Assembly (NCBI GenBank): GCA_045632925.1 | Contig: JAZQXP010000057.1 | Span: 67,447 to 131,446, forward strand | Source of the DNA: Eubacteriales bacterium | Lineage (GTDB): Bacteria > Bacillota > Clostridia > Oscillospirales > CAG-272 | Direction: 5' to 3' | DNA length: 64,000 bases | In this document: positions 21,109 to 63,378 of the stretch, piece after piece | How positions within the stretch are numbered: the first letter of the stretch is position 1 | How the letters are laid out: every line of letters begins with the position of its first letter | Translations under genes and position numbers: made by a program | Notes under the pieces: generated by a model | The model's input: the letters and a program-made list of their open reading frames with translations, nothing else | The model's database searches: none | What the model was told of the DNA's origin: nothing

Positions 21109-23085
21109 ATGCTTGCAAGATTTATGCAAAACGAATACTCCCCCGTCCCCCGCATCGAAAAAAGGTGCGGGGCGGAGGACGTTTCATATCTCGGCGCATT
21201 TCCGTGTGGCGAGGTAATTGAAATTACCGCCCGGGTTCCGCGAGTGCTCGGCGTTACGTCGGTCTGTCTCTGCATCCGCAGAGATACACTTGCGCCGGCG
21301 GACGAAATGCTCGAAGGAGCGGCACATACGATCGATTTCGAGTATGTCTCGACCGATTACGTTAACGATGAATATAAGTTGAGCCTCGACACAGCCGCGC
21401 TTTGCGGAGAGTCGAATTCGGGGCTTTTTTACTATACATATGTTTTCCGCCAAGGCAAGGATGAACTCCTTGCAAGTGCTTGCGACAACGTGAATTTTAC
21501 GCTCGTGCGCGAAAATTGGAAGGAATTCCGCATGACCCTCTACTGCCCCGATTACCGCGTGCCCGCGTGGCTCGGCGGTGGTATTATGTACCATATCTTC
21601 CTCGACCGCTTTGCAAAGGGTGAAGGAAGGGTCAGCTATCGCGATGATGCCATCATCGACACTGATTGGGAGAACGGCGTGCCGCAGTATGCTGAATACC
21701 GCGGCGCAGAGGTCAAAAACAACCACTTTTTCGGCGGAAATCTATGGGGAATTATCGAAAAGCTCGACTATCTCGAGTCACTCGGTGTGAGCATTCTTTA
21801 TCTTTCGCCGATATTCGATGCTGTCAGCAACCATAAATACGACACCTCGGATTATATGAAGATCGCCGAGGAATTCGGAGGCGAGGAGGCGTTTGGAGCC
21901 CTCATCGAAGCCGCGCACGCGAGAGGGATGAAGATCATCCTCGACGGCGTTTTCAATCATACGGGAAGTGACAGCCGATATTTCGACGAATTCGGCAGAT
22001 ACGGTTTTTCCGCACGCGATGAGCAGTCGCTCTATCACTCTTGGTATGATTTCCACGCTCCCGAAAAGGAGGGCGCGCCCGATTATACAGCCTGGTGGGG
22101 CATCAGAATTCTGCCGAGGCTGAATACACATAAAGACGAATGCCGCGAGTTTTTCACGGGCGCGGGCGGCGTTGCCGAGCATTATATGCAAGCGGGCATC
22201 GACGGCTGGCGTCTTGACGTTGCCGACGAGCTTCCCGACAGATTTCTTGAGGAACTGCGAGAGAGGATACACTCGGTCAATTCTGAAAGTATTCTTATCG
22301 GCGAGGTCTGGGAAAATGCGGCTGACAAGATCGCGTACGGCAAGCGCCGCTCCTATTTCAGGGGCAAACAGCTCGACAGCGTTATGAATTATCCCACGCG
22401 CAAAGCGCTTCTTGACTTTGCCGAAAACGGCAACGGAAAGGCACTTGCGGCGGCTCTTACGGATCTTTATTCCTCTTATCCAAAGTCGGTTTCGGACAGC
22501 CTGATGAACCTTATAGGCACGCACGATACCGAGCGCGTGCTGACGTTGCTCGGAAATCCCGCGAAGGTGCGCGAGAATGCGTATGCATATAATGCGGTGC
22601 AGGAAAAACTGCGCCTGACCGACGAGGAGCACGCAAGAGGCGTGAAACTGCTCAAAATGATCTCGACTCTTCAGTTCACTCTCTTTGGTTTTCCGTGCAT
22701 TTATTACGGCGACGAGGCGGGTATGGAGGGTATGAGCGATCCCTTCTGCCGTTATCCATTTCCGTGGCATAATATAAATAAGGAAATAAACGATCATTAT
22801 AAAAAGCTCGGTGCGATTCGCCGAGGTGAGAAAATATTCGCGGGCGGTGAGTTTAGGATCACCAAGGCAAGCGGCGGATATTTTGAGTTTATAAGATATA
22901 AAAGGGACGAAAAGGAATATATCCTTATTGCCGTCAATGTGGCGGACAAGCCCATAAAAGTGCAGGCATCGAGCGGCATAAACCTCTATACGGGCAAGAG
23001 AGTGGTGGGAAATCCCTCGCTGAAGCAAGGTGAGTTCCTGATCGTCAAAAAGAAAGGAGACGTAAAAAATGGGATTCTGGAGTAA
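21109..23085 (+). CDS. GH13 alpha-amylase family enzyme (neopullulanase/amylopullulanase-like)
   Basis: GH13 conserved regions are present: DGVFNHT, GIDGWRLDVADEL, LIGEVWE, LIGTHDTER. The exact start is uncertain. Confidence 0.85.
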   Translation: MLARFMQNEYSPVPRIEKRCGAEDVSYLGAFPCGEVIEITARVPRVLGVTSVCLCIRRDTLAPADEMLEGAAHTIDFEYVSTDYVNDEYKLSLDTAALCGESNSGLFYYTYVFRQGKDELLASACDNVNFTLVRENWKEFRMTLYCPDYRVPAWLGGGIMYHIFLDRFAKGEGRVSYRDDAIIDTDWENGVPQYAEYRGAEVKNNHFFGGNLWGIIEKLDYLESLGVSILYLSPIFDAVSNHKYDTSDYMKIAEEFGGEEAFGALIEAAHARGMKIILDGVFNHTGSDSRYFDEFGRYGFSARDEQSLYHSWYDFHAPEKEGAPDYTAWWGIRILPRLNTHKDECREFFTGAGGVAEHYMQAGIDGWRLDVADELPDRFLEELRERIHSVNSESILIGEVWENAADKIAYGKRRSYFRGKQLDSVMNYPTRKALLDFAENGNGKALAAALTDLYSSYPKSVSDSLMNLIGTHDTERVLTLLGNPAKVRENAYAYNAVQEKLRLTDEEHARGVKLLKMISTLQFTLFGFPCIYYGDEAGMEGMSDPFCRYPFPWHNINKEINDHYKKLGAIRRGEKIFAGGEFRITKASGGYFEFIRYKRDEKEYILIAVNVADKPIKVQASSGINLYTGKRVVGNPSLKQGEFLIVKKKGDVKNGILE

Positions 23086-23416
23086 GGTCGTAGGGCATTG
23101 GACGAAGCCGAAGGACCCGAACAGCGTTCGCTTCCGCCGCGAAATGGCGGAGAAGATCGCGGGTCAGTATATCAAATACGTAACCGAGCGCATCAACAAC
23201 GTCGACGAGGTCATCGGACGCAAGGGCAGCCTTGCCATCCGCGAGGACGAATTCCTTGTTTTCGCCTCCGCCGATATCCTCTTCCGCTGCAAGATCGACG
23301 AACTCCGCGCAAGCGAGCTCCTTTCAAAGGACGGAGTAGTTTTAATTGGTCCTGACCTCGAACACGGCGGAGAAGAGAGAACGATTATTGCGTATTATGT
23401 ATATTATAGGAAGTGA
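23069..23416 (+). CDS. Small hypothetical protein overlapping the end of the GH13 gene
   Basis: 115 aa ORF with an AAAGGAGA RBS and a 17-nt overlap with the upstream gene, on the same strand as the operon. I recognise no family. Confidence 0.55.
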   Translation: MGFWSKVVGHWTKPKDPNSVRFRREMAEKIAGQYIKYVTERINNVDEVIGRKGSLAIREDEFLVFASADILFRCKIDELRASELLSKDGVVLIGPDLEHGGEERTIIAYYVYYRK

Positions 23417-23531
23417 TTCTGTCGGCTTCGCCGAATGATAGTCCGCCATTGGCGGAATGATGATCACGCTTCGCGTGAATGATGATCCGCTGAAGCGGAA
23501 TGAAGGAAGATTTTCGCCGAGGCGAAAATCT
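23417..23531 (+). repeat. Tandem mini-hairpin array: five hairpins separated by ATGATGA-type 7-nt linkers
   Basis: TCGGC-TTC-GCCGA, TCCGCC-ATT-GGCGGA, TCACGC-TTC-GCGTGA, TCCGC-TGAA-GCGGA and AGATTTTCGCC-GAG-GGCGAAAATCT are spaced 20-22 nt apart. The array starts 1 nt after the TGA stop. Confidence 0.85.
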
Positions 23532-23547
23532 CAATTATTGTAAAAAA

Positions 23548-23575
23548 GTCTCGTCTGAAAAGATGAGGCTTTTTA
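23548..23575 (+). terminator. Rho-independent terminator ending the glycogen operon transcript
   Basis: GTCTCGTC-TGAAAA-GATGAGGC pairs fully as plus-strand RNA if G-U wobbles are allowed. TTTTTA follows. Confidence 0.7.
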
Positions 23576-23639: not shown

Positions 23640-23668
23640 TTGACAACGAGAGGATGATATGATATAAT
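23640..23668 (+). promoter_or_regulatory. Consensus sigma-A promoter for the 23702 gene
   Basis: TTGACA, a 17-nt spacer, then TATAAT, with TG at -15/-14. Confidence 0.8.
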
Positions 23669-23701: not shown

Positions 23702-24232
23702 ATGACTAAACAAGAAAGAAGCCCCTATGTTAAATTGCTTATCGACCTGTTAAAGACCGTGATTTCCACTTTTCTGTTCTTTCTCCTTTCGAATAATCTT
23801 ATCCGCGCGATATTTGAGGATGAGCAGGACAGGAGTGTTATCAATCTTGCTCTGGTCATTTCAATCTACTTTTTCTATTTTGCCGCGTTTTATATAATGC
23901 ACGCAAGGAGAAGTATGGATGATTATTCGCTTAATATGGGCGACAGACAATATTGTCTCAAGGAAGATTTCAAGGAGATCGTTACGGGCGACGGAAAGAG
24001 GCTTGCGATAATTTACGCCGTTCTTGCCGTTATGATGGAACTGATCGCGCGTATCAAGGTCTTAAGAGCTCTCTCAGTCGCTTTTTTACCGGTGTTTCCG
24101 ATCTTTGCGATATCGGATTTTCCCGTGCTGATCGCGCTTATCGGATGGACGATCCTCACTGCCGGTTCAATTATAACCATCGTCTACAGCCACCACCGCG
24201 TACACGTACTTAAAGCAAAAGGAAAGCTGTAA
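23702..24232 (+). CDS. Hypothetical integral membrane protein
   Basis: 176 aa with about four hydrophobic segments. It has its own consensus promoter and terminator. Confidence 0.6.
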   Translation: MTKQERSPYVKLLIDLLKTVISTFLFFLLSNNLIRAIFEDEQDRSVINLALVISIYFFYFAAFYIMHARRSMDDYSLNMGDRQYCLKEDFKEIVTGDGKRLAIIYAVLAVMMELIARIKVLRALSVAFLPVFPIFAISDFPVLIALIGWTILTAGSIITIVYSHHRVHVLKAKGKL

Positions 24233-24237
24233 AATTG

Positions 24238-24273
24238 AAACGCCTCGTCCTTTCGGACGAGGCGTTTTTATTT
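24238..24273 (+). terminator. Rho-independent terminator, probably shared with the convergent minus-strand gene
   Basis: The 10-bp stem CGCCTCGTCC/GGACGAGGCG has a TTTC loop and is followed by TTTTTATTT. Confidence 0.88.
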
Positions 24274-24279
24274 AATGAT

Positions 24280-24338
24280 GATTTTCGCCTCAGCGAAAAT
24301 CTACCTTCATTTTGCATTTTGCATTTTTAATTTTGCAT
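24280..24338 (-). repeat. Heptamer tract (ATGCAAA-type on the minus strand) plus an A/T-clamped cap hairpin, directly after the FAD-oxidoreductase stop
   Basis: The minus strand reads TAA-ATAAATGCAAAATTAAAAATGCAAAATGCAAAATGAAGGTA-GATTTTCGC-TGAG-GCGAAAATC. The cap and its ATGAAGG lead-in closely match 23500-23531. Confidence 0.8.
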
Positions 24339-26216
24339 TTATTTAACGTCTGCCGAGAACAGATGAACCTTACTGCTTCCTCTTGTTTCATCAAATACGA
24401 TGGTGAGCTTCTGTGCCTTAACGCCGAGGGCGATCTTGCGCAGAGAATTACGGTTGTTGGTGTCGGCGAAGATCTCCTTGCCGTCTGCAAGAACGCGGAA
24501 GGATTTGACGAGAGTCTTTGCAACCTTTACGGGAACGAAATCCTTGCCCGTCATAAGCTTCTGCGCGAAGACGCGCATCTTCTTGTTGGGAGTGATCGAC
24601 TTGCGCGAGAAGTCGGGGTCGAAGACGAGACGAAGCTCGGAAAGCTCCTTTTCTTCACCAAAGTCAAACTCGAGCGCATCGCCGATCTCGAGCGTTGCGT
24701 AGTTGACGTTCATTTCCTCGTCGGGACGCTCGATGCCGTTCTGAAGAAGTGCAAGCTCGGATTCGGGGAGATTGATCTTCGCGCTCTTGGTGAGCTCGGG
24801 AATCTCGCGGACGGTGCCGGGGATATAGCAGCCCGCGTCGCGAAGCTTGTCCTGAAGGACCTTGATCTTCTGCTCGTAAACGCCGTGGGGAGTTACGCCG
24901 TCATTAATACAGATCGAAGCAGCGGTACCCATAGCCTGACCGATGAGGGCACAGGTTGCCATAACACGGGTCGAGCTCATTGCGGCGTGGGTCGCGCTGA
25001 TATTTCTACCCGCGAAGAAGAGGTTGTCAACCTCGTGACCGTAGAGCACGCGGTAGGGAATGCCGTAGGGCGAAGGAGCGGGATATAGCTTGGATGCGGG
25101 TGCGCCGCTGAGATAGGAACGGAAGCCCGCGGGGTTGTGGTCGTCCATCGGCCAACCGCCGTAAGCGACTATATCGTCAAACTTTCCGCCCGACTCGATG
25201 TCATTTTCGGTGAGAACGTGCGCGCCGATGTAGCGGCGGCTCTCTCTCTTACCGGGGATACAACCGACCCACTCGAGGGTCCAGTTGGTTGCGTTGTGGT
25301 CGCCGTAGTTCTTGACGTGATCCCAGATGCCGTACGCGATCTTGAGAAGCTCGTCGCGCATTTCCTCGGCATCGTGGATGCTGTCATACTCGCCGCCGAG
25401 CTCGAGCCACCAGAAGTTGGTCTCGCTTGTGCCGAGCTTGTGGGGACGTGCAAGGTACTTGACGTCCTGAACTTTAACGCCGGAAACGCCCGTGCTTGCA
25501 TCGATGATGTTGCCGCTTGCATCCTTGATAAGGTTGAAGTCGTCGTCGGTCTCGAATTTATATGCCCAATCGGGAGCGGTGAAGGGAACGGGCTCGTCGG
25601 TCTCGCGTGCCTGAATGAGGCAGGACATGCCCATGGTCTTTTTGTCTGCAACCTCCTTACCCATAGCCTCGCCGTACTCGGAAGCCGCCTCACGGCCGAC
25701 ACGCCACTTCGCGCCCGAGATGGGAGCGAGGATCGAGTCGCCCGAGCAGTCAGCAAAATAAGTAGCCTTTACGGTGTGCCAGGTGTAGGTCGTCATCTGC
25801 CAAGCGGTGACGGATGTGAGGTGCGACACGCCATCCTTCTCGGTGCGATCGGCGTCACAGCAGGTGGTGTTGAGAAGAAGGGTGATATTCTTCTCAGCCT
25901 TGACCTTCGCCCAGAGCACGTTGTCGAAGGTGGAGGGGATGAGGGTGGGGTTGAGGTAGATATTTTCCTCTTCGATCTCGGAGATGATACCCGTCTCGCG
26001 GTTCTCAAGACCGTGCGCGCCTCTGACCCACATTCTGATCTCGCTCGATGCGTTACCGCCGAGCACGGGTCTGTCCTGGATGAGGACGACCTTTGTGCCT
26101 TCTCTTGCAGCTGCGATAGCGGCACAGAGACCGGTAAGACCGCCGCCGATGATGCAGAGGTCGGTGTTATGTTCAATATGGCGCATGCCGTTTGTTTTAA
26201 TAGTAAGTTCGCTCAT
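24339..26216 (-). CDS. FAD-dependent oxidoreductase (FAD_oxidored family)
   Basis: The N-terminus DLCIIGGGLTGLCAAIAAAREG..LGGNASSE is a Rossmann FAD motif. 625 aa. An AAGGAG RBS is present. Confidence 0.85.
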   Translation of the reverse strand: MSELTIKTNGMRHIEHNTDLCIIGGGLTGLCAAIAAAREGTKVVLIQDRPVLGGNASSEIRMWVRGAHGLENRETGIISEIEEENIYLNPTLIPSTFDNVLWAKVKAEKNITLLLNTTCCDADRTEKDGVSHLTSVTAWQMTTYTWHTVKATYFADCSGDSILAPISGAKWRVGREAASEYGEAMGKEVADKKTMGMSCLIQARETDEPVPFTAPDWAYKFETDDDFNLIKDASGNIIDASTGVSGVKVQDVKYLARPHKLGTSETNFWWLELGGEYDSIHDAEEMRDELLKIAYGIWDHVKNYGDHNATNWTLEWVGCIPGKRESRRYIGAHVLTENDIESGGKFDDIVAYGGWPMDDHNPAGFRSYLSGAPASKLYPAPSPYGIPYRVLYGHEVDNLFFAGRNISATHAAMSSTRVMATCALIGQAMGTAASICINDGVTPHGVYEQKIKVLQDKLRDAGCYIPGTVREIPELTKSAKINLPESELALLQNGIERPDEEMNVNYATLEIGDALEFDFGEEKELSELRLVFDPDFSRKSITPNKKMRVFAQKLMTGKDFVPVKVAKTLVKSFRVLADGKEIFADTNNRNSLRKIALGVKAQKLTIVFDETRGSSKVHLFSADVK

Positions 26217-41292: not shown

Positions 41293-41370
41293 TTGTTTCT
41301 CCATTTTGTGTTGAATGAAAATACCGTACCTTCAGCCTTGCCGAAGATACGGTATTTTCTCGGGTAAGCC

Positions 41371-41553
41371 TTATGCTTCCTTCTTAGCGATTACTTCCTT
41401 GCCGTCATACATGCCGCATTCGGGGCAAACGTGATGGGGCTTGATAAGTGCATCACAGTTGGGGCACTTTACAAGACCGGGAGTGACGAGCTTCCAGTTA
41501 GCGCGTCTCTTGTCTCTGCGAGCTTTGGATGTTTTTCTCTTCGGTACTGCCAT
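41371..41553 (-). CDS. rpmF: 50S ribosomal protein L32
   Basis: MAVPKRKTSKARRDKRRA..CPNCDALIKPHHVCPECG. Confidence 0.95.
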   Translation of the reverse strand: MAVPKRKTSKARRDKRRANWKLVTPGLVKCPNCDALIKPHHVCPECGMYDGKEVIAKKEA

Positions 41554-41603
41554 AACCTACACCTCCTATATTTTTACATAAAAGATTTACGATGGTTTTG
41601 CGC

Positions 41604-44864: not shown

Positions 44865-45036
44865 TTGCGAGTCTGTAGGGGACGGCGCCCTCGACGTCCA
44901 ACTTTGCGAGAGTTATGATCGCGCAAAGCGCGAGTTAAGATCGGCTTGCGCCGAGTTAATATTGCCTTCGGCAAGTTAAGATTCGCCTGCGGCGAAGTTT
45001 AAGGTGAATTTCCTCGCTGAAGCTTCGGAAATTTTC
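44865..45036 (+). repeat. Tandem mini-hairpin array: GTTAAGA-type 7-nt linkers plus a cap hairpin
   Basis: The TTGCGAG direct repeat flanks GGACG..CGTCC. It is followed by TCGCGC-AAA-GCGCGA, TCGGC-TTGC-GCCGA, TTGCC-TTCG-GGCAA, TTCGCC-TGC-GGCGAA and AATTTCC-TCGCTGAAGCTTC-GGAAATT at 20-24 nt spacing. Confidence 0.85.
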
Positions 45037-53890: not shown

Positions 53891-54982
53891 ATGAGTTTTG
53901 TTGTTACAGAAAAGAAAAAGTGTTGTGTTGTCGGCGCGACCGGAATGGTAGGTCAGCGTTTTCTGACCCTTCTTGCCGACCATCCTTATTTTGAAGTTAC
54001 CTGCCTTGCCGCTTCGTCGAGAAGCGCGGGCAAAACATATGCCGAGGCTGTCGGAAACCGTTGGAAGCTTACCGAGCCGATGCCCGAAAAGTTTGCGGAT
54101 ATGGTCGTTCTCGATTCCGCCGAGGTCGACAAGATCGCATCCCTTTGCGATTTCGTTTTCTGCGCCGTTGATATGCCCAAGGCAGAGGTCCGCGCAATGG
54201 AGGAGAATTTCGCACGCCACGAGCTTCCCGTAGTCTCGAACAATTCCGCTTGCCGCGGTGTTGAGGACGTCCCTATGCTTATGCCCGAGATAAACTCGGA
54301 TCACCTTGCCGTCATCGAGACACAGAAAAAGAGACTCGGCACCAAGCGCGGATTTATCGCCGTTAAGCCGAATTGCTCGATCCAGTCCTACGTTCCCATG
54401 CTCACACCCCTGCTTAAGTTTGGACTCAATAAGGTCGTTGCTACCACCTATCAGGCTATTTCCGGCGCGGGCAAGACCTTTGCGGAATGGCCCGAGATGA
54501 TCGACAACGTCATCCCCTTCATCGGCCGTGAAGAGCAGAAGAGCGAGCAGGAGCCCCTCAAGATCTGGGGAAAGGTCGAGAACGGCGTTGTAGTCAATGC
54601 AGATGCTCCGCTGATCACGACTCAGTGCATCCGCGTGCCCGTAACCAACGGTCACACCGCCGCTATCTTTATGAGCTTTGAGAATAAGCCCTCGAAGGAG
54701 GAGATCCTTGCGGCTTGGGCTGAATACAAGGGACTTCCCCAGGAGCTCGGACTTCCGAACGCTCCCGAACAGTTCATCACGTACTTTGAAGAAGATAACC
54801 GTCCTCAGTGCGCTATTGATCGCGAGATCTACGGCGGAATGGGCATCACAGCGGGCAGACTTCGCGAGGACACCATGTTTGACTACAAATTCGTCGGACT
54901 TTCGCACAATACTCTCCGCGGCGCCGCAGGAGGATCGGTACTTAATGCAGAGCTCCTCTACAGACTCGGATACCTTGATTAA
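53891..54982 (+). CDS. asd: Aspartate-semialdehyde dehydrogenase
   Basis: VVGATGMVGQRF (NAD binding), NCSIQ (active-site Cys) and SHNTLRGAAG. Confidence 0.93.
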   Translation: MSFVVTEKKKCCVVGATGMVGQRFLTLLADHPYFEVTCLAASSRSAGKTYAEAVGNRWKLTEPMPEKFADMVVLDSAEVDKIASLCDFVFCAVDMPKAEVRAMEENFARHELPVVSNNSACRGVEDVPMLMPEINSDHLAVIETQKKRLGTKRGFIAVKPNCSIQSYVPMLTPLLKFGLNKVVATTYQAISGAGKTFAEWPEMIDNVIPFIGREEQKSEQEPLKIWGKVENGVVVNADAPLITTQCIRVPVTNGHTAAIFMSFENKPSKEEILAAWAEYKGLPQELGLPNAPEQFITYFEEDNRPQCAIDREIYGGMGITAGRLREDTMFDYKFVGLSHNTLRGAAGGSVLNAELLYRLGYLD

Positions 54983-54984
54983 TA

Positions 54985-55785
54985 ATGAAGAACAGAAATA
55001 TACTTGTTGTAACCTTTTCTCCGGGCGGAGGATGCCTTGAGCTTGCCGATGCGGCAACCGTCATTCTTGACCGCGCGGGATACGAGGTCGAATGCCTCGA
55101 TATCACTTATGCGGAGGACAGGGAAGCGGCGTGCGGGCTTGAGATCCACGTTGATCTTATGCTTATGATCGCGCCCGTTTACCTGCGCCATCTGCCGCCT
55201 CCCGTTGAATTTTTCATCAAGCGCTCGCAACTCTTTGTCGAAAAGGCTGCGCTTGTGCTCGGCTACGGCTCCTGCGGAGTTGGATGCGCTCCCGAGGAGG
55301 CAAGAAAGCTCTTTGATTCCGCCGAGGTACCGCTCTGCAGGATTATGACTTGTCCGCTTTCGCATTCCTTTGCGGATTGCGTTGAGGAAAAGCAGGTCCT
55401 GCCCGACAGCCTTGGCGACGTTGGGGCCTTCATCCTTTCGGTTGCCGCTGACGAGGACAGAGAGGAGCTTCCGATCGCGCCCCACGGATTCGATATTATA
55501 GGAAAGCTTCCTTATGATCTGACGAAGAGGCTTGCCTTCGGATTTCCGAAGACCGTCAGCGCGAACTGCACCTTCTGCGGTACCTGCGCGAAGGTCTGTC
55601 CGACGGAGGCGATCACGCTCGACAAATTCAGAATCGATACCGAGCGTTGTATCGGATGCGGAGCCTGCGTGCGCTCTTGTCCGAAGGGCGCAAAGTCGAT
55701 CAACAGATACCCCTGGACCAAGGCGATCCTCAGAAAAGGCTTCGCCGAGGTCAAATATCCCGAGGAGATCACGGGACAGAAATGA
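54985..55785 (+). CDS. Flavodoxin-like / 2x[4Fe-4S] ferredoxin fusion (EFR1-like)
   Basis: The C-terminus carries CTFCGTCAKVCP and CIGCGACVRSCP. The N-terminus has a flavodoxin-like alpha/beta pattern. Confidence 0.72.
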   Translation: MKNRNILVVTFSPGGGCLELADAATVILDRAGYEVECLDITYAEDREAACGLEIHVDLMLMIAPVYLRHLPPPVEFFIKRSQLFVEKAALVLGYGSCGVGCAPEEARKLFDSAEVPLCRIMTCPLSHSFADCVEEKQVLPDSLGDVGAFILSVAADEDREELPIAPHGFDIIGKLPYDLTKRLAFGFPKTVSANCTFCGTCAKVCPTEAITLDKFRIDTERCIGCGACVRSCPKGAKSINRYPWTKAILRKGFAEVKYPEEITGQK

Positions 55786-55786
55786 C

Positions 55787-55818
55787 AAAAAGTGCCCATG
55801 AAAATTGGGCACTTTTTG
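55787..55818 (+). terminator. Terminator after the ferredoxin gene
   Basis: AAAAAGTGCCCA-loop-TGGGCACTTTTT. Confidence 0.85.
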
Positions 55819-55820
55819 TA

Positions 55821-55849
55821 TTTACATATGGCATATTTTGTGGTATAAT
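55821..55849 (+). promoter_or_regulatory. Promoter of the SGNH lipoprotein gene
   Basis: TTTACA, a 17-nt spacer, then TATAAT with a TGG extension. Confidence 0.7.
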
Positions 55850-55872
55850 GAAAGAAAAAACGGAGAATGGCA

Positions 55873-57480
55873 ATGAAAAAACATATCAGAATCCTGACAG
55901 CTTTAATATCCCTTTTGTTTATCCTTCCTCTGTTCGGCTGTACCGGCGGAGAAGGCGAAGTGACTTCAAGCACTCCCGATCCCGAAAATACACCACCTGC
56001 GGTCACCGATGCACCTGAGACCGATGCACCCGAGACCGTTGCACCCGAGACCGTTGCACCCGAGACAGACGCGCCCGAGACAGAGCCTGCAGAGGTTGTT
56101 GACGACGAGTGGACGGCTTTGAGAAAGAAGGCAGAGGGCGAGGGCATCAAGGTCCTCTTTATCGGCGACAGCCTGACTCATTATAACGATATGCCCGTGA
56201 TATTCGAGGCTCTGTGCCGCGCCGCAGGCAAGAAGGTCACCGCCGCCGCACAGACAAAGGGCGGCACGGGTATTGCGATGTACCGCGAGGATGCCGCGCT
56301 CTGGGAGACGTACAGCAAAAGGATCGCTTCGGATAATTGGGACATCATCATTTTTCAGCCCAACCGCAACAATACCGTTATGACCGAATTCTTCCCCTAC
56401 TATCCCTGGAAGGAATACTCCGCGGCAAAGGACGTCGTTGAGCTGATCAAGGCGGCGGGCGCGATTCCTCTTCAGTACTCGAGCTTCGGCGTGAACAAGG
56501 GATATGTTACCCGCGAAGGAAACACCAAGAGAATGTCCAGAATCGAGCATACGAATCTTGTAACCGCATATAATGCAGCAGTTTCCGAAATGCTCGGAAC
56601 CAAGGCTGTTTACGTCGGCGCAACCTTCAATAAGGTCATCGACGAGCATCCGGGCTACGGAATGTATCATACCGACAATTCGCATCCCTCGGCTACGGGA
56701 AGCTATCTTATCGCGTCGGATTTCTATACCGTGATCTTTGGCGAGGCACCCGTAGACGTTGATTTCACCAACGGACTTGACGCCGAAATTGCAAAGACGC
56801 TCCGTGAAGCCTCCGCAATGCTTCTTGATTACGCTCCCACCGAGAAGGCTGAGATCAAGTACGTCGAGGAGGAAAAGAAGGAGAAGGGCACTCTTACCTT
56901 CGGTTCACACGGCTTTACGGGCATTGCCGCAGAGGGAAAGAGCGGAATGTTTGACGTCACCGAGGACAACAAGACCATCAGCTATACCTACAAGAGCGGC
57001 GACGGCATCATATATTCCTTTGCAACTCTCGACGGAAAGCCCGTCTCGGGAAACAGCCTGATCTTTGAGGCTGACGTTACGATCGGAAAGTATTGCGGAA
57101 GCAAAAACCCGACCGCGGGACTTCAGCTTATCGACGAAAAGGGCAAGACCTACCGCCTCTACCTGCGTACTGCGGGCGGAAACATCACGGGTACGGACAG
57201 CTCGACCGCAACCTTCCATATCCGCACAGACCACGACAGCAGTAAGACGCGTACCGATCTCGGAAGCTTCTCGAATAAGGTCAAGCTTCGCCTCGAGGTC
57301 ACACCCGACTCTATGACCCTCTATACCGACGGTCAGATGTATATGAAGATCACTTATGAGGGCACCGAATTCTTTGACGGCACCAAGACCGACAAGATGA
57401 CCTACGACGGCTCCGACGTTCAGCTCGGACTCGTAACCTGCTATGCGGATACGAGATTCGATAACGTGGTGATTAATTAA
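55873..57480 (+). CDS. Lipoprotein with an SGNH/GDSL hydrolase domain and a C-terminal lectin-like domain
   Basis: The lipobox is LFGC. An (APETx)5 linker follows, then the GDSL block VLFIGDSLT. The C-terminal beta-sandwich-like region is unassigned. Confidence 0.75.
   Translation: MKKHIRILTALISLLFILPLFGCTGGEGEVTSSTPDPENTPPAVTDAPETDAPETVAPETVAPETDAPETEPAEVVDDEWTALRKKAEGEGIKVLFIGDSLTHYNDMPVIFEALCRAAGKKVTAAAQTKGGTGIAMYREDAALWETYSKRIASDNWDIIIFQPNRNNTVMTEFFPYYPWKEYSAAKDVVELIKAAGAIPLQYSSFGVNKGYVTREGNTKRMSRIEHTNLVTAYNAAVSEMLGTKAVYVGATFNKVIDEHPGYGMYHTDNSHPSATGSYLIASDFYTVIFGEAPVDVDFTNGLDAEIAKTLREASAMLLDYAPTEKAEIKYVEEEKKEKGTLTFGSHGFTGIAAEGKSGMFDVTEDNKTISYTYKSGDGIIYSFATLDGKPVSGNSLIFEADVTIGKYCGSKNPTAGLQLIDEKGKTYRLYLRTAGGNITGTDSSTATFHIRTDHDSSKTRTDLGSFSNKVKLRLEVTPDSMTLYTDGQMYMKITYEGTEFFDGTKTDKMTYDGSDVQLGLVTCYADTRFDNVVIN
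56011..56085 (+). repeat. Five tandem 15-bp coding repeats (APETD/V linker)
   Basis: GCACC(T/C)GAGACCG(A/T)T repeats five times with drift, in frame within the lipoprotein gene. Confidence 0.9.
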
Positions 57481-57788
57481 GTGCAGAGTGTAGAGTGTAG
57501 AATGCAGAGTTAATGTAATTTTTCTCGCGATGCTCGAAAAATATTTGTGGGATAATTTAATTTGGCACTGATAACACTTCGCTTAGCTATAACATTTAAT
57601 AGCTAAACAAATAACTCGGAAATCAATGAAGATTACTTCAAAGATTTCCGAGCATTTTTTATTTACCAAATTTATTGTTTATCGCAAAACAATAGTTTGC
57701 CAAAGCAAAACATAATTCTTTAACTTCTAATTTCCGAGCTCGCTCGGAAATTATCCTCAACTCTGCATTATGCACTCTGCACTCTGCA
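57481..57788 (+). repeat. Repeat element copy A: inverted heptamer ends plus cap hairpins around an A+T-rich core with a terminator
   Basis: The left end is GTGCAGA GTGTAGA GTGTAGA ATGCAGA GTT plus the hairpin TTTTTC-TCGCGATGCTC-GAAAAA. The right end is the hairpin AATTTCCGAG-CTCG-CTCGGAAATT plus inverted heptamers at 57761-57788. It starts at the first base after the TAA stop. Confidence 0.85.
57615..57660 (+). terminator. Terminator inside element A
   Basis: The stem CTCGGAAATC/GATTTCCGAG is followed by CATTTTTTATTT. Confidence 0.8.
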
Positions 57789-57914
57789 TTTAATTACTCT
57801 CTCCGTCAATTAATCGCAAAAAATCTCCATTTAAGAAAATCTTAATTCGTTTAGCTATTTCTTTTTCATAAAAAGTGTGGTATAATGTACTTAATAAACC
57901 ACAGGAGCGTTAAA

Positions 57915-58610
57915 ATGTACAATATTCTTATATGCGACGATGAGGTAGATATCGTATCCGCGCTGAAAATATATCTTGCGTCCCCCGATCTGAATTTCTT
58001 CACCGCGGGTACGGGCGTCGAGGCGCTTCGTATTCTCGATAAGGAGGAGATCCATCTGATCATCCTTGATATCATGATGCCCGTGATGGACGGTATGACC
58101 GTGGCGGTCAAGATCCGTGAGACAAGCAACGTGCCGATCATCTTCCTTTCCGCCAAGAGTGAGGACAGCGACAAGATCCTCGGTCTCAATATCGGAGCCG
58201 ACGATTACATAACCAAGCCCTTCAATCCGATCGAGGTCTCTGCGAGAGTCCGTTCTCAGTTGAGAAGATATTTCACTCTCGGCGGCTCAAACAAGACCGA
58301 TGACGTCATCAGGAACGGCGGTCTTGAGATCGACAACAGGGAAAAGAGATTTATGCTCGACGGCGAGGAAGTTGCTCTGACGCCGAAGGAGTATGACATC
58401 CTCAAGCTTCTGATGTCGAATCCCGGAAAGGTCTTCTCACCGAGCGAGATCTATACCCTCGTATGGAAGGAGAGCGCGCTGACGGGCGACAATACGGTCG
58501 CGGTGCATATCAGACATCTGCGCGAGAAGATCGAGATCAATCCCGCTGAGCCGAGATACCTCAAGGTCGTCTGGGGTCAGGGATATAAGATCGAGAAGGG
58601 AGTAAGATAA
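57915..58610 (+). CDS. OmpR-family response regulator
   Basis: ILICDDE..LDIMMP (receiver Asp) and a winged-helix C-terminus (LTPKEYDILKLL..RHLREKIE). Confidence 0.93.
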   Translation: MYNILICDDEVDIVSALKIYLASPDLNFFTAGTGVEALRILDKEEIHLIILDIMMPVMDGMTVAVKIRETSNVPIIFLSAKSEDSDKILGLNIGADDYITKPFNPIEVSARVRSQLRRYFTLGGSNKTDDVIRNGGLEIDNREKRFMLDGEEVALTPKEYDILKLLMSNPGKVFSPSEIYTLVWKESALTGDNTVAVHIRHLREKIEINPAEPRYLKVVWGQGYKIEKGVR

Positions 58611-60565: not shown

Positions 60566-61387
60566 ATGAATGTTCTTGACAAAATGATGAATGCAATAGC
60601 GGCGGAAATGACTCCGCCGCCGGCATACGGTACCTTTCATATAATTCTGATCATCGTCGGTATGACCCTCTGCATTTCGCTTGCTTGGCTCTGTCGAAAA
60701 TTCGACGACAGAAAGAATAAGATCCTGCTGCTTTCCTTCGCGGGCGTTCTGATCGTGAGCGAGATCTTCAAGCAGATCTTCCTCTTTTTCGTTGTCGAGG
60801 AGAACGCGATCTGCTGGGGCGAGTTCCCCTTTCAGATGTGCTCGATGCCGATGTATCTTTGCCCCGTCGCGGTATTGTCGAAGAATGAAAGGATCAGCCG
60901 CGCGGCTTACGGCTTTATGATGTGCTTCAATCTGCTCGGCGGATTTGCGGGCGTTTTTGAGCCCTCGGGAGTCTTTCTCACGCAGGTGCCGCTGACCGTC
61001 CACGCGATCGCTTGGCATTATTCGCTCGTCTTCCTCGCGTTTTACATAATCTTCTCGCACCGCGCGGGAAGCACGAAGCGGGATTATTTCGATATCGTCA
61101 AGCTCTTTGTTGCGCTCTGCTTCGTTGCATTCGTGATCAATACCCTGATCGGTATTACGGTCGGCGCAGAGGTCAATATGTTCTTCGTCGGACCGAATCC
61201 CGCGCCGATAATAGTTTTCAATACGATCGCGCAAAAATTCGGCTGGGCGGCGAGCACGGTGATCTATATACCGATAACCTCGCTTGCGGCGGGAGTGATA
61301 TTTTTGATAAATGCAAAATGCAGAATGCAGAGGGCAGAGGGAGTGCAGAGTGCAGAGTGCAGAGTGCAGAATGCAGAGTTAAGGTAA
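60566..61387 (+). CDS. Polytopic membrane protein (YwaF/TIGR02206-like) whose last roughly 25 codons are the heptamer repeat
   Basis: It has about 7 TM segments. The C-terminus reads KCRMQRAEGVQSAECRVQSAECRVQNAELR, which is translated from the TGCAGAG repeats. Confidence 0.65.
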   Translation: MNVLDKMMNAIAAEMTPPPAYGTFHIILIIVGMTLCISLAWLCRKFDDRKNKILLLSFAGVLIVSEIFKQIFLFFVVEENAICWGEFPFQMCSMPMYLCPVAVLSKNERISRAAYGFMMCFNLLGGFAGVFEPSGVFLTQVPLTVHAIAWHYSLVFLAFYIIFSHRAGSTKRDYFDIVKLFVALCFVAFVINTLIGITVGAEVNMFFVGPNPAPIIVFNTIAQKFGWAASTVIYIPITSLAAGVIFLINAKCRMQRAEGVQSAECRVQNAELR

Positions 61388-61652
61388 ATTTCCTCGCGAT
61401 GCTCGGAAATTGTTCCTTATGATAATTGTATTTCTGCATGATAACCTTTTGTACTGTTCTGAACCGTTGTTTAATAATAAGAAACTCGAGATATAATGAA
61501 GTTTTTTACGCTTCACTGTATCTCGAGTTTTCTATTTGGTTTTTATATGTTTTAGATTAACTAAGGATTATCAGCACAAAATATATTTATTTCGGTATGC
61601 TTTTCGAACAAAGTTCGAAAAGCTTCCATAACTCTGCATTCTGCACTCTGCA
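61309..61652 (+). repeat. Repeat element copy B, homologous to copy A
   Basis: About 10 heptamers (AATGCA.. drifting to TGCAGAG) are followed by AGTTAAGGTA and the hairpin AATTTCC-TCGCGATGCTC-GGAAATT. Next comes a core similar to copy A, then the hairpin CTTTTCGAAC-AAA-GTTCGAAAAG and inverted heptamers at 61632-61652. Confidence 0.85.
61482..61537. terminator. Bidirectional terminator inside element B, serving 60566-61387 and glcK
   Basis: The stem CTCGAGATA/TATCTCGAG has T-rich tails on both strands. Confidence 0.75.
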
Positions 61653-61664
61653 CTCCCTTCGCCT

Positions 61665-62621
61665 TTAACCCAAAAGCGCTGCTCCGATAATTCCCGCTTC
61701 GTTTCCGAGGGTCGCGATGCGGATCTCTGTCGGACGGACGATACCGTTGCCGTAGGTCTCCGCTCTTACCAGGGGAACGAGGGGAGTGAGGAGATTGTCC
61801 TTCTCGTTCGAGATGCCGCCGCCGATAGAAAGGACCTCGGGCTGGAAGATGTTGATAATATTGATAATGCCGCAAGCGAGGTGCTTTATGTAGGAATCAA
61901 CGACCTCTTTTGCCGCCGCGTCGCCTGCGCGCATAGCGTCAAAGGACGTGCGTCCCGATACCTTGCCGCGCTCTGCTGCCATATCCGACATAAGTGTGTT
62001 GATGCCCTTTTCCTTGCATTCGGCGATCTTTTCCTCGGTCATCTTGACAAGAGCCGTTGCAGAGCTGTAAGCCTCCCAGCATCCTTTTCTTCCGCAGGAG
62101 CAGGGTCTGCCGTCGCAAACGATAACGATATGTCCGAGCTCGGCGCCCGCATAGTTAAAGCCGGAATAGATCTTGTCATCTATAACGATGCCGCCTCCGA
62201 CACCCGTACCGAGCGTGATCATGATCGAGCTCTTCGAGCCCTTTGCCGCTCCGACCTTAGCCTCGCCCCAAGCTGCGGCATTGGCGTCGTTTTCAATGGT
62301 TACCTTCGGAACGGGGAATCCCTCCTTGAACTTATCAGCAAGGGGGAAGTTACGGAAGGGAAGGTTATTGGCGTATTCAACTACTCCCGTGTCGTGGTTT
62401 GCAACGCCGGGGCTGGCAATACCTACAGCCTCGATCTCGTCGATGGAGATCTCTGCGTTTTTGATCAGATCGTGGCAAAGCTTTGCCATATCCGCAACGA
62501 TCTCGTCTGCGGGTCTGTGCGCACCCGTGGGAATGCTCTGACGGGAAAGAATAGTTCCTTCATTATTTACAATACCTGCGGCAATATTTGTACCGCCAAG
62601 GTCAACACCGACTCTGTACAT
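61665..62621 (-). CDS. glcK: ROK-family glucokinase
   Basis: VGVDLGGTNIAAG..ENDANAAAWGE..CSCGRKGCWEAY are the ROK zinc-motif sequences. Confidence 0.9.
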   Translation of the reverse strand: MYRVGVDLGGTNIAAGIVNNEGTILSRQSIPTGAHRPADEIVADMAKLCHDLIKNAEISIDEIEAVGIASPGVANHDTGVVEYANNLPFRNFPLADKFKEGFPVPKVTIENDANAAAWGEAKVGAAKGSKSSIMITLGTGVGGGIVIDDKIYSGFNYAGAELGHIVIVCDGRPCSCGRKGCWEAYSSATALVKMTEEKIAECKEKGINTLMSDMAAERGKVSGRTSFDAMRAGDAAAKEVVDSYIKHLACGIINIINIFQPEVLSIGGGISNEKDNLLTPLVPLVRAETYGNGIVRPTEIRIATLGNEAGIIGAALLG

Positions 62622-62686: not shown

Positions 62687-62710
62687 CCGAATTTCTATTT
62701 TTTTAATTGA

Positions 62711-62772
62711 TTTTCTCGCATCGCGATAAAAACTACCTTACTTCTTACCTCTTACCTTTTACCTCTTACCTC
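62711..62772 (-). repeat. Heptamer tract (GAGGTAA-type on the minus strand) plus cap hairpin, directly after the J-protein stop
   Basis: The minus strand reads TGA-TGC-GAGGTAA GAGGTAA AAGGTAA GAGGTAA GAAGTAA GGTAG-TTTTATCGC-GAT-GCGAGAAAA. Confidence 0.85.
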
Positions 62773-62775: not shown

Positions 62776-63378
62776 TCAGCAACAGGGTCCTCCAATGCAA
62801 AGGTTTGCGCAGATGCAGATTCTCAGGCAGTCGCAGAAGCTGTCCGAGCAGTCCGTGTGCGTGGTGTATGTGCCGCCCTGATAGGACGATGTCCTTGCGC
62901 GGAGCTGTTCGCGTGCGGCGCGGTATTCCTCGTTTTCGGGATCGCGTTCGCAGGCAATATCGAAGCATCTGCCCGCGTCGATGATGTTTCCGCGCATCAT
63001 CAGAGTGATTCCGCGGAGATAGTACCATTCCGCGCCGCGCTCGTTCTGCGGAACGGTGGAAAGAACGGCTTCAGCTTCTCGTACACGGCGCGCGTTGATG
63101 TGAACGCGGACTGCAACGTATCTGTCGTCACCTGAGGACGAGGTCTCGTTATAATGCGCACCCCCGTAGTATGAATCCTGCGACTTGCCCGAGCGGATCT
63201 TCTGGATCTCCTCGTATGCGGCGTTGATCTCCTTCATTTTTTCCTCGGCGCGTGCACGCTCGGCGGGATCGGTGAATTTATCTGGGTGGTTTTCACGGGC
63301 GAGCTTTCGGTAAGCCTTTTTGATATCGTCGTCGCTCGTCTCACGGCTTACGCCGAGCACCGAAAAGGGATCTCTCAT
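62776..63378 (-). CDS. J-domain protein with a TPR-like middle region and a Cys-rich C-terminal tail
   Basis: The J domain ([23 protein letters not shown]) carries the HPD motif. The tail is [24 protein letters not shown]. Confidence 0.85.

What the first reader, a model, noticed from the sequence alone, without database searches (positions are those of the whole stretch)
24280..24338. Same stop-codon-proximal module built from an unrelated heptamer (ATGCAAA)
Read on the minus strand, the TAA of the FAD oxidoreductase is followed at once by ATGCAAA-type heptamers. Next come ATGAAGGTA and the hairpin GATTTTCGC-TGAG-GCGAAAATC, and only then the shared terminator.

The lead-in and cap closely match the end of the 23417-23531 array (ATGAAGGAAG-ATTTTCGCC-GAG-GGCGAAAAT).

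Across loci the repeated 7-mers differ: ATGCAGA/GTGTAGA, ATGCAAA, GAGGTAA, ATGATGA, GTTAAGA. They share a loose R-K-K-N-A-R-A shape. The hairpin arrays have a period of about 21 nt, which is 3 x 7. The conserved features are therefore the 7-nt register, the position after a stop codon, and the AAGG-plus-clamp-hairpin cap, not the repeat sequence itself.
Basis: seen in the sequence. Interest (0 to 1): 0.7.

Follow-up and report, generated by a model that had tools for sequence, protein, structure and literature searches.

The report
Interspersed heptad-repeat plus hairpin element
The 59-base stretch is one copy of a short repeated DNA module (four 7-base repeats, a ribosome-binding-site-like word, a small perfect hairpin) that this cattle-gut bacterium and its relatives scatter just behind gene ends; the pattern is real and belongs to the long-noticed, still unexplained class of bacterial heptanucleotide repeats.

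Summary
On the minus strand the sequence runs TAA (24341-24339), four heptads (24338-24311), ATGAAGG, a 9-bp hairpin (24301-24280), then a bidirectional terminator.

It is not a one-off. Eight such arms lie in the window. In 428 kb of related Clostridia MAG DNA there are 128 period-7 arrays.
- Array length peaks at 31 nt. 54 of 81 RTGCAGA-type arrays have exactly four units, followed by a degenerate fifth unit RTTRWGG.
- Arrays abut stop codons: 26 of 55 against 6.5 expected.
- Neighbouring arrays face each other: 34 convergent against 2 divergent.
- Arrays are depleted between divergent genes.

The arms are the ends of discrete, multicopy elements. Copies at different loci are more alike (87%) than copies at the orthologous locus (70%). 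In close strains arms are swapped, with the breakpoint at or next to the stop codon. The same RTGCAGA arrays occur in at least ten phyla.

Best reading: a REP/BIME- or REPIN-like interspersed repeat built from heptads, tolerated in the stop-proximal 3' UTR, where it probably acts as a spacer plus protective hairpin. No mobilising enzyme or binding factor was found.

Position after a stop codon is a strong bias, not a defining feature, and the cap is lineage-specific. It is a new variant of a known, unexplained kind.

The parts
24339..24341 (-). TAA stop codon of the FAD-dependent oxidoreductase ORF (24339..26216); the first heptad follows with no gap
24311..24338 (-). Four tandem heptads: ATGCAAA ATTAAAA ATGCAAA ATGCAAA. 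Unpaired in the RNA fold.
   Evidence: (TRF period 7, 4.7 copies). The stretch 24302-24343 has depth 400-1600 against about 10 in the flanks in gut metagenome contigs.
24302..24310 (-). Degenerate fifth heptad ATGAAGG plus TA (Shine-Dalgarno-like lead-in); general form RTTRWGG
24280..24301 (-). Cap hairpin GATTTTCGC-TGAG-GCGAAAATC: 9 perfect pairs, no U-tract behind it
24237..24268 (.). Bidirectional intrinsic terminator shared by ORF 23702..24232(+) and ORF 24339..26216(-). It places the module inside the transcribed 3' UTR.
23417..23531 (+). Partner arm in inverted orientation. It begins right after the TGA of ORF 23069..23416: four small hairpins, ATGATRR-type heptads after the first three, ATGAAGG after the fourth, and a near-identical cap (23509-23530). 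A terminator follows at 23543-23574.
44915..45033 (+). Arm of the hairpin-array type (GTTAAGA heptads, four hairpins, GTTTAAGG, cap). It lies in a divergent intergenic region and follows no stop codon.
57481..57537 (+). Left arm of the composite element 57480-~57795: four heptads directly after the TAA of ORF 55867..57480, then GTTAATG and the cap
57728..57788 (-). Right arm of the same composite: four heptads, GTTGAGG, 11-bp cap. No upstream gene on this strand.
61310..61412 (+). Left arm of the composite 61310-61655: about 10 heptads, GTTAAGG, cap. ORF 60566..61387 reads through the array and stops at the TAA inside AAGGTAA.
61597..61655 (-). Right arm of that composite: three heptads, GTTATGG, 12-bp cap. 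It starts 9 nt after the TAA of the ROK-family ORF 61665..62621.
62700..62772 (-). Solitary arm: five GAGGTAA-type heptads plus cap, 3 nt after the TGA of the DnaJ-domain ORF 62776..63378. A close strain replaces 62717-62775 with 24 other bases.

Best explanation
The segment 24280-24338 is one arm of a family of short interspersed intergenic repeats. Each arm has four (sometimes three, five or more) tandem heptads of loose form RTKNNRA on the purine-rich strand. A degenerate fifth heptad RTTRWGG follows, here ATGAAGG, which resembles a Shine-Dalgarno site. A short, usually perfect palindrome closes the arm.

Arms typically occur as convergent inverted pairs. These form discrete elements of 100-350 bp, foldback-, REPIN- or BIME-like, often with a true terminator in the middle.

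Shown: the family is copied or exchanged between loci at the DNA level. Copies persist almost only where a gene's 3' end faces the spacer, so the arm ends up flush against the stop codon and upstream of the real terminator.

Inferred, not shown: because the arm is transcribed as the first part of the 3' UTR, its likely effect is REP-like. The stable cap would act as a barrier or processing point for 3'-to-5' decay. The unstructured heptad tract of about 31-40 nt would keep that hairpin clear of the terminating ribosome.

The enzyme or recombination route that spreads the arms is unknown. So is the reason for the 4 x 7 design.
For: Family and architecture:
- Eight arms in the window align to one consensus.
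- There are 128 period-7 arrays in 428 kb of related MAG DNA, against about 4 in 221 kb of control loci.
- Length mode is 31 nt, and 54 of 81 RTGCAGA-type arrays have exactly 4 units. The fifth unit is RTTRWGG.
- AGG plus a hairpin of at least 7 bp follows 34 of 128 arrays, against 6 of 125 mirrored and 20 of 474 random controls.

Bias toward 3' ends, as for REP:
- Purine-rich strand co-directional with the upstream gene: 62 against 29 overall, 30 against 9 for solitary arrays.
- Stop-to-array distance of 5 nt or less in 26 of 55, against 6.5 expected.
- Density is 2.06 per kb in convergent gaps, 1.96 in tandem gaps and 0.5 in divergent gaps.

Pairing: 34 convergent neighbours against 2 divergent; in other phyla 50 against 8.

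DNA-level dispersal and turnover:
- The composite in L026 sits at the position orthologous to window 57480-57806. It is 87% identical to window 61349-61655 but only 70% to the orthologous copy.
- The whole composite 57480-~57795 is multicopy in metagenome X1. Contigs with unrelated flanks begin to match exactly at 57480.
- Heptad bins reach depth 400-1600 against about 10 in the flanks.
- Close strains replace arms. At two stops the breakpoint is at the codon: 24339 is joined, 13 nt on, to an ATGATGA-hairpin array, and 62717-62775 is replaced by 24 nt starting at 62776. At 61665 the arm after the stop differs, but the junction sequence was not recovered.

Transcription and context:
- The arm lies between the stop codon and the terminator.
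- Heptad arrays are abundant in metatranscriptome contigs.
- Genes bracketed by arrays are ordinary housekeeping genes.
Against: - No transposase, RAYT or other mobilising gene was found, and no target-site duplication is visible.
- Heptad sequence differs between arms, even within one element, while the architecture is kept. This is unusual for copies of a selfish element and looks more like selection on design.
- The sharp peak at four units and the zero-nucleotide distance to stop codons are not explained by tolerance alone.
- No read-level RNA data were available, so the 3'-UTR barrier or spacer role is inferred by analogy with REP.
- Wobble asymmetry in the caps (11 G.T against 6 A.C) does not distinguish RNA-level from DNA-level selection.
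Confidence: 0.5

Rival explanations
1. A dedicated stop-codon-proximal RNA module. The four to five periodic triplets (A-R-U every 7 nt), the SD-like word and the hairpin would be the binding platform for an oligomeric RNA-binding factor, or for the 30S subunit or post-termination ribosome. HutP reads NAG triplets spaced by 4 nt, and cold-shock proteins bind about 7 nt each. The module would control termination, re-initiation or mRNA fate of the upstream gene.
For: - The architecture is conserved while the sequence varies.
- The number of units is fixed: 54 of 81 arrays have four.
- Many arrays start exactly at the stop codon, with a strand bias of 62 against 29.
- The lead-ins are good matches to the anti-SD complement, for example GGAGGAU and GAGGUGAU.
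- RTG after the stop, ten codons, then TAA/TGA in the fifth unit gives a mini-ORF in 24 of 91 arrays.
- Arrays are present in RNA contigs.
Against: - A third of oriented arrays have no co-directional upstream gene. Two of the 8 window arms follow no stop, and one lies inside an ORF.
- The mini-ORF is absent from most arrays, including the one in this finding (ATG CAA AAT TAA).
- The NAG periodicity fails for ATGCAAA, ATGATGA and GAGGTAA arms.
- Caps are perfect DNA palindromes shared by both strands.
- Close strains tolerate quite different arms behind the same stop codon.
- No candidate protein was identified.
Confidence: 0.2
2. Neutral microsatellites. Heptanucleotide tracts would arise in situ by replication slippage, following the Mrazek 2007 idea that about 7 nt fits the polymerase. 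They would accumulate in non-coding DNA next to hairpins, with no function and no mobility.
For: - Heptanucleotide repeats are the most abundant long simple-sequence-repeat (SSR) class in many prokaryotes (PMC4679880 and PMC4692102, citing Mrazek 2007).
- Units within an array are homogeneous but differ between arrays, and the first base of the fifth unit follows the array type. Both fit local duplication or conversion.
- A few long arrays exist: 10-47 copies.
Against: - The length distribution peaks at 4 units rather than decaying from 3.
- The same composite, including non-repetitive inner sequence, is found at non-orthologous loci at 87-90% identity.
- Strain differences seen are replacements, not 7-nt steps.
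- The strong convergent pairing and stop-codon adjacency are not predicted by slippage.
Confidence: 0.1
3. Double-stranded DNA binding sites. The four to five direct 7-bp heptads in inverted pairs would be operators or nucleoid sites for a DNA-binding protein that reads consecutive heptads. The omega repressor of pSM19035 binds WATCACW heptads in this way (from memory). This matches the 'global regulator binding site' reading given to similar elements in Geobacter.
For: - Paired sites on opposite strands with a variable distance between them were described in Geobacter metallireducens: 4 x 8 nt, 3 x 8-9 nt and 5 x 7 nt (MTYCTGA, the complement of ATTCAGA-type units) (PMC2700814).
- The arrangement is symmetric on both strands.
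- 21 bp equals two helical turns.
Against: - At least five unrelated heptads occur in one 64-kb window, so no single sequence-specific protein fits.
- The sites sit at gene 3' ends and are depleted where promoters are, in divergent gaps.
- No regulator gene is linked to them.
Confidence: 0.1
4. Part of the transcription terminator. The cap hairpin, or the long hairpin formed by inverted arrays, would itself terminate or attenuate transcription.
For: - In other phyla the inverted arrays form stems of 24-35 bp right after stop codons, with loops of 8-50 nt.
- The scan flags 23508-23531 as weakly terminator-like.
Against: - The cap at 24280-24301 has no U-tract (tail AUCAUUAAAU).
- A canonical terminator follows 11-35 nt later at both arms of this locus and in the middle of the composites.
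- Many paired arms carry different heptads and cannot pair with each other.
Confidence: 0.05

Closest known systems
REP / BIME / REPIN elements of Proteobacteria (REPINs: PMC3116915)
   Same: Short extragenic palindromes in very high copy number. They are concentrated at gene 3' ends and rare between divergent genes. They often occur as inverted doublets, are transcribed in 3' UTRs, vary between strains, and sit close to stop codons.
   Different: REPs are families with conserved sequence and a 5' GTAG, mobilised by RAYT transposases. Here the arms are built from 4 x 7-nt tandem repeats whose sequence varies between copies. No GTAG and no RAYT was seen. The hosts are Clostridia and many other phyla.
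Heptanucleotide long simple sequence repeats (SSRs): STRR of Calothrix/Nostoc, GGGAATC of Xanthomonas (PMC4692102), TAACTGA of Beggiatoaceae (PMC4679880), Nostoc TTTTGAA (bioRxiv 10.1101/2022.06.06.494920)
   Same: Tandem 7-nt units, intergenic, many loci per genome, patchy phylogenetic spread, occasional inverted pairs, function unresolved.
   Different: The published cases were mostly described upstream of start codons or as G-quadruplex formers, with variable copy number. Here the tract is fixed near four units, abuts stop codons, is purine-rich on the sense strand, and is coupled to a fifth unit RTTRWGG and a hairpin. The unit RTGCAGA was not found in the paper library.
Geobacter metallireducens multicopy elements: 'Gmet_H4' (four tandem GGACCGG) and 'global regulator binding sites' classes 1-3 (PMC2700814)
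   Same: Families of exactly four or five tandem 7-8-nt repeats, mostly in pairs on opposite strands at a variable distance. Class 3, MTYCTGA, is the complement of ATTCAGA-type units. Function unknown.
   Different: They were interpreted as regulator or RNA sites. Some lie inside genes. No stop-codon adjacency, SD-like unit or cap hairpin was reported.
Small dispersed repeats (SDR) of Nostoc punctiforme (Elhai et al. 2008, Genome Res 18:1484; cited in PMC3116915; content recalled from memory because the paper is not held)
   Same: Hairpin mini-elements of 21-27 nt with compensatory changes, often embedded in tandem heptamers. This is the same look as the 21-22-nt hairpin arrays at 23417-23503 and 44915-45000.
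   Different: Different phylum and sequences. The SDRs were proposed to be mobile in themselves. Here one hairpin follows each heptad, in sets of about four, ending in a larger cap.
MITEs and eukaryotic foldback elements
   Same: Discrete non-coding elements of 100-350 bp with inverted ends, multicopy with sharp boundaries. Foldback elements likewise have arms made of short tandem repeats (from memory).
   Different: No target-site duplication, no related transposase, and the two arms may carry different heptads.
Periodic-triplet RNA operators (HutP: NAG-N4 x3, twice; TRAP: (G/U)AG x11) (from memory)
   Same: A 7-nt period with a conserved triplet and variable spacers. CAG/UAG recurs every 7 nt in RTGCAGA and GTGTAGA arms, upstream of a hairpin.
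   Different: Those operators sit in 5' leaders of single operons. Here hundreds of 3'-end sites exist, many without NAG (ATGCAAA, ATGATGA). No HutP or TRAP gene was tested or seen.

Membership tests
Heptanucleotide tandem repeats (LSSR/STRR class) | Three or more head-to-tail 7-nt units, in excess over chance, at many intergenic loci of a genome | tested here: met
   TRF finds period 7 at 24308-24340 and at 5 more window loci. The window's intergenic DNA holds 5 arrays against 0.03 in shuffles. There are 128 arrays in 428 kb of related MAGs, 101 of them intergenic.
REP/REPIN | Short imperfect palindrome, extragenic, high copy, biased to 3' ends | tested here: met
   Cap hairpins of 8-14 bp. 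Depth is 400-1600 against about 10 in the flanks. Density by gap type is 2.06, 1.96 and 0.5 per kb.
REP/REPIN | Inverted doublets as the replicative unit | tested here: met
   34 convergent pairs against 2 divergent. The composite 57480-~57795 is multicopy with sharp outer boundaries.
REP/REPIN | Conserved 5' GTAG and a cognate RAYT (Y1 transposase) gene | tested here: not met
   No GTAG sits next to the caps. Genes flanked by arrays are ordinary. Genome-wide presence of a RAYT could not be tested.
MITE | Terminal inverted repeats plus a target-site duplication plus a related autonomous IS | tested here: inconclusive
   Inverted arms are present. No direct duplication is seen at the borders of the composites W57, W61, L026 or L105. 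No transposase was found.
Intrinsic terminator | GC-rich hairpin followed at once by a U-tract | tested here: not met
   The cap 24280-24301 is followed by AUCAUUAAAU. The scan finds the true terminators at 24237-24268 and 23543-23574.
Phase-variation (contingency) SSR | The repeat lies in an ORF or promoter, so that copy-number change switches expression; copy number is highly variable | tested here: not met
   The tract lies after the stop codon. The unit number is fixed near 4. No 7-nt indels were seen in strain contigs.
Known RNA family (Rfam 15) | Match at or above the gathering score | tested here: not met
   There are 0 hits at gathering score on the whole window. Permissive scans give only chance-level hits.
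Integron attC | Order R'' (RYYYAAC) ... R' (GTTRRRY) around an imperfect palindrome at cassette 3' ends, in cassette arrays | tested here: not met
   Here GTTAAGG precedes the hairpin and CCTTAAC follows it, which is the opposite order. Position 7 does not fit. There is no cassette array.
HutP/TRAP-type operator | Periodic NAG or (G/U)AG triplets and a cognate protein gene | tested here: inconclusive
   NAG recurs every 7 nt in RTGCAGA and GTGTAGA arms, but not in the ATGCAAA arm of this finding. The protein was not searched for.

The most novel reading that the evidence does not exclude
The 'four heptads + RTTRWGG + palindrome' arms, and the inverted RTGCAGA tetrads found from Acidobacteriota to Clostridia, could be the recognition sites of one widespread, still unidentified machinery. 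This might be an oligomeric single-strand-binding factor or a non-canonical mobilising or templating enzyme. It would write or read a fixed number of 7-nt units at gene 3' ends, giving a general gene-end punctuation system. It would also give a mechanistic answer to why heptanucleotide repeats dominate bacterial SSRs.
Probability: 0.15. Interest if true: 0.85.

Novelty: new variant of a known kind. Interest (0 to 1): 0.55.

Why it matters
Heptanucleotide repeats have been the commonest long simple repeats in bacteria since the 2007 surveys, and nobody knows why. This window and its relatives add constraints that a slippage-only model does not predict:
- a fixed number of units, about four plus a degenerate fifth;
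- a constant polarity;
- convergent pairing;
- flush placement against stop codons;
- whole-arm replacement between close strains;
- the same RTGCAGA unit in at least ten phyla.

If a factor or enzyme lies behind this, it would be a general feature of bacterial gene ends, comparable to REP/RAYT.

In practice these arms break metagenome assemblies. They can also extend ORF calls, as in 60566..61387.

Tried and rejected
- **Rfam.** Nothing at gathering score; only chance-level hits at permissive thresholds.
- **Gene-specific element.** 28 orthologous FAD-oxidoreductase loci (67% identity or less) were inspected past the stop codon. None has the heptad arm; one (L119) has an unrelated ATATCGC-plus-hairpin array.
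- **Autonomous transposon.** ORFs lying between inverted arms are an SBP, Ham1, RbfA, DUF3267, DUF3990, an Avd-like IVP protein, or have no hit. No transposase was found. ORF176, which lies between the two arms of this locus, has no Pfam hit.
- **Target-site duplication.** None at four composite borders.
- **Mini-ORF re-initiated at the stop** (RTG, 10 codons, TAA/TGA). True for only 24 of 91 arrays and not for this one.
- **Intramolecular pairing of the two arrays as the general function.** Many pairs carry non-complementary heptads.
- **RNA-level against DNA-level selection, by G.T against A.C mismatches in caps.** 11 against 6, not informative.
- **RNA 3' ends.** Only assembled metatranscriptome contigs were available. 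They break at the repeats and carry no strand information.
- **Assembly artefact.** Rejected. The arrays are 31 nt long, imperfect, and present in many independent assemblies and runs.
- **Phage origin.** Only 7 matches in 2.9 million viral contigs; not followed up.
- **Literature.** No paper contains GTGCAGAGTGCAGA-type strings as a bacterial repeat. Elhai 2008 could not be read.
- **CodY box, attC, Chi, and restriction or BREX motifs.** Considered from memory as look-alikes of the cap or heptads. Dropped because spacing, order, or the multiplicity of heptads in one genome does not fit.

Full report
**1. The observation**

Read on the minus strand, ORF 24339..26216 ends in TAA at 24341-24339. 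It is 625 aa and matches Pfam FAD_oxidored at 1.3e-86. With no gap come ATGCAAA, ATTAAAA, ATGCAAA, ATGCAAA (24338-24311), then ATGAAGG-TA (24310-24302). The perfect hairpin GATTTTCGC-TGAG-GCGAAAATC follows (24301-24280). Eleven bases later comes the bidirectional terminator 24237-24268.

TRF reports a period-7 array of 4.7 copies. As RNA, the heptads stay unpaired while the cap and the terminator fold (z = -7.6). The 18-nt lead-in plus cap arm recurs exactly once more, at 23500-23517 on the other strand. It closes a 22-nt-period array of small hairpins that starts right after the TGA of ORF 23069..23416. The description is correct apart from one detail: the partner cap is an 8-bp stem with a CGAG loop.

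**2. It is a family**

The window holds eight such arms: 23417+, 24338-, 44915+, 57481+, 57788-, 61310+, 61655- and 62772-. They align to one consensus: TAA, then (RTGCAGA) x4, GTTAAGG, TAG, ATTTTCGC..GCGAAAAT.

The window's intergenic DNA has 5 period-7 arrays against 0.03 in dinucleotide shuffles.

Six of the eight arms begin 0-9 nt after a stop-codon triplet; for 61310+ that triplet is out of frame with the ORF. Two follow no gene: 44915+ lies between divergent genes, and 57788- lies upstream of a promoter. ORF 60566..61387 reads straight through the 61310 array and stops at the TAA inside AAGGTAA.

**3. Where else**

A scan of one genome per species for RTGCAGA-GTGYAGA-RTGYAGA returned more than 118 loci, where about 4 are expected by chance (my arithmetic). 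Fifty-one come from gut Clostridia MAGs (Acutalibacteraceae, Oscillospiraceae, 'Eubacteriales'). The rest come from Acidobacteriota, Planctomycetota, Chloroflexota, Gemmatimonadota, Verrucomicrobiota, Bacteroidota, Proteobacteria and others.

The window's organism lives in bovine gut metagenomes. Orthologues of the FAD oxidoreductase at 67% identity or less do not carry the arm. The arm therefore belongs to the genome's repeat load, not to the gene.

**4. Rules extracted from 428 kb of Clostridia loci plus the window**

- **Abundance.** Period 7 dominates all tandem repeats, with 143 TRF rows against 18 for period 6 and 10 for period 8. There are 128 arrays of at least 2.8 copies, 101 of them intergenic. 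Loci not selected for heptads show about 4 such arrays in 221 kb.
- **Fixed size.** Length is sharply peaked at 29-33 nt. Of 81 RTGCAGA-type arrays, 54 have exactly four units, 12 have three and 8 have five. Other phyla also peak at 4-5 units, with a long tail.
- **Fifth unit.** After the last unit comes a degenerate heptad RTTRWGG. Its first base follows the array type.
- **What follows.** In the window's lineage the fifth unit reads as a Shine-Dalgarno-like AAGG/GGAGG word and is followed by a perfect hairpin of 8-14 bp with T-rich and A-rich ends. AGG plus such a hairpin follows 34 of 128 arrays, against 6 of 125 mirrored and 20 of 474 random controls. Other MAGs use other palindromes after the same fifth unit.
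- **Polarity and position.** Taking the purine-rich strand as sense, the upstream gene is co-directional in 62 cases against 29 (solitary arrays: 30 against 9). 26 of 55 arrays start within 5 nt of its stop codon, against 6.5 expected (P < 5e-6).
- **Gap type.** Density is about 2 per kb in convergent and tandem gaps but 0.5 per kb in divergent gaps.
- **Pairing.** Neighbouring arrays face each other 34 times and turn away twice. In other phyla the counts are 50 and 8, with gaps of about 8-50 nt, so that long hairpins form right after stop codons.
- **Hairpin arrays.** The 21-22-nt arrays are the same arms with a 5-6-bp hairpin after each heptad, again about four per arm.

**5. The arms are ends of dispersed, fast-changing DNA elements**

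- L026 is syntenic with window 54785-59255 at 74-82% identity. Its composite at the orthologous site is 87% identical to window 61349-61655, but only 70% identical to the orthologous 57480-57806.
- In metagenome X1 the whole stretch 57480-~57795 is multicopy, not just the heptads. Contigs with unrelated flanks begin to match exactly at 57480, the first base after the stop codon.
- The heptad bins at 24302-24343, 61320-61383 and 62728-62791 reach depths of 400-1600 against about 10 in the flanks.
- At three stop codons, closely related strains carry a different arm:
  - 24339 is joined, 13 nt on, to an ATGATGA-hairpin array.
  - At 61665 the arm differs and the match runs into an RTGCAGA array like the left arm's. 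The junction sequence was not recovered.
  - 62717-62775 is replaced by 24 other bases, starting at 62776.
- The differences seen were replacements; no 7-nt step changes appeared, although contigs rarely spanned the arrays.
- Genes enclosed by arrays are ordinary. No transposase and no target-site duplication were found.

**6. What it most likely is and does**

Shown: this is a REP/BIME- or REPIN-like interspersed repeat whose arms are built from heptads. It is copied or exchanged between loci and retained almost only where a gene's 3' end faces the spacer. It lies between the stop codon and the true terminator, and so is transcribed. Heptad arrays are abundant in metatranscriptome contigs.

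Inferred by analogy with REP: the cap would be a barrier or processing point for 3' decay. The unstructured tract of about 31-40 nt would keep it beyond the terminating ribosome.

Unexplained: why four units, why 7 nt, why the arm sits flush with the stop codon, and what spreads the arms.

Rivals:
- **A dedicated protein- or ribosome-binding 3' module.** It is supported by the conserved design and weakened by arms without genes and by free swapping between strains.
- **Neutral slippage.** It is contradicted by the peak at four units, the dispersal and the replacements.
- **Double-stranded DNA operator sites.** Too many different heptads occur in one genome, and the sites are in the wrong location.
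- **A terminator role.** There is no U-tract, and a real terminator follows.

**7. Comparison with what is known**

- Heptanucleotide repeats are the most abundant long SSR class in many prokaryotes, and a polymerase-slippage idea has been proposed (PMC4679880 and PMC4692102, citing Mrazek 2007).
- Specific families have been described: STRR, GGGAATC in Xanthomonas (with inverted pairs noted), TAACTGA in Beggiatoaceae, and TTTTGAA in Nostoc.
- The Geobacter metallireducens genome paper lists families of exactly four or five tandem heptanucleotides, mostly paired on opposite strands, of unknown function. This is the closest published description.
- Nostoc 'small dispersed repeats' embedded in heptamer arrays (Elhai 2008) resemble the hairpin arrays. 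This is recalled from memory, because the paper could not be read.
- No paper in the library contains the RTGCAGA array, and Rfam has no such family.

**8. Verdict**

This is a new variant of a known but unexplained kind. Interest is moderate: the single locus is ordinary for this genome, but the rules it exposes make the old heptamer question testable.

Noticed in passing
window 60566-61387 (+): The TMEM164-family ORF (Pfam match to residues 21-227) reads through the whole heptad array from 61310. This gives a tail ...DKCKMQNAEGRGSAECRVQSAECRVKV and a stop at the TAA inside the lead-in AAGGTAA. TGA-TAA sits in another frame just before the array. In metagenome X1 the orthologous contig stops matching at 61303. 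The array probably extended or replaced the native 3' end.
   Followed up: partly
window 23702-24232 (+): A 176-aa multi-pass membrane ORF with no Pfam hit has its own consensus promoter (23640-23668, 12 of 12 matches with an extended -10) and its own terminator. It sits exactly between the two inverted arms that share the near-identical cap. It could be cargo of a 922-bp arm-bounded unit, or simply a gene between two convergent 3' ends.
   Followed up: partly
window 56005-56081 (+): A 15-nt tandem repeat, 5.1 copies at 90% identity (ACCGATGCACCCGAG), lies inside ORF 55867..57480. It is an in-frame 5-aa repeat in a weak DUF4886-like protein.
   Followed up: no
window 57610-57665 and 61483-61537: Both composites have in their middle a long hairpin with an A-tract before it and a T-tract after it (a bidirectional terminator). 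Its loop region contains AATGAAG. Short hydrophobic ORFs start there (for example MKFFTLHCISSFLFGFYMF), but they are not conserved in L105 or L076.
   Followed up: partly
L119 4876-5060: After the stop of the closest FAD-oxidoreductase orthologue (67% identity) comes a terminator-like hairpin. It is followed by an array of 7-bp-stem hairpins separated by the heptad ATATCGC (period about 24). This is the same building principle with unrelated sequence.
   Followed up: no
L066 5928-6494: A 115-aa protein of the 23S-rRNA-IVP family (PF05635, 2.4e-27) is bracketed by two inverted RTGCAGA arms. From memory, this is the family that includes the Avd proteins of diversity-generating retroelements.
   Followed up: no
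L014, L018, L029, L061, L071 (Acutalibacteraceae/Oscillospiraceae) and L049, L056, L060, L107, L110: The same four ATGCAGA units are followed by other conserved neighbours. One is ATTTCGG-AAGTCC-TTCG-GGACTT-GATTATAATTAT. Another is ATTGTGGTCGCGGG.... The heptad tetrad is therefore the shared part, and the cap is a lineage-specific module.
   Followed up: partly
window 41330-41590 (-): The crude gene list leaves a gap here. It appears to hold a small ribosomal-protein-like ORF on the minus strand (translation beginning MAVPKRKTSKARRDKRR..., L32-like, read by eye).
   Followed up: no
L156-L162 (IMG/VR contigs): Seven viral contigs carry a full RTGCAGA x4 + RTT arm.
   Followed up: no
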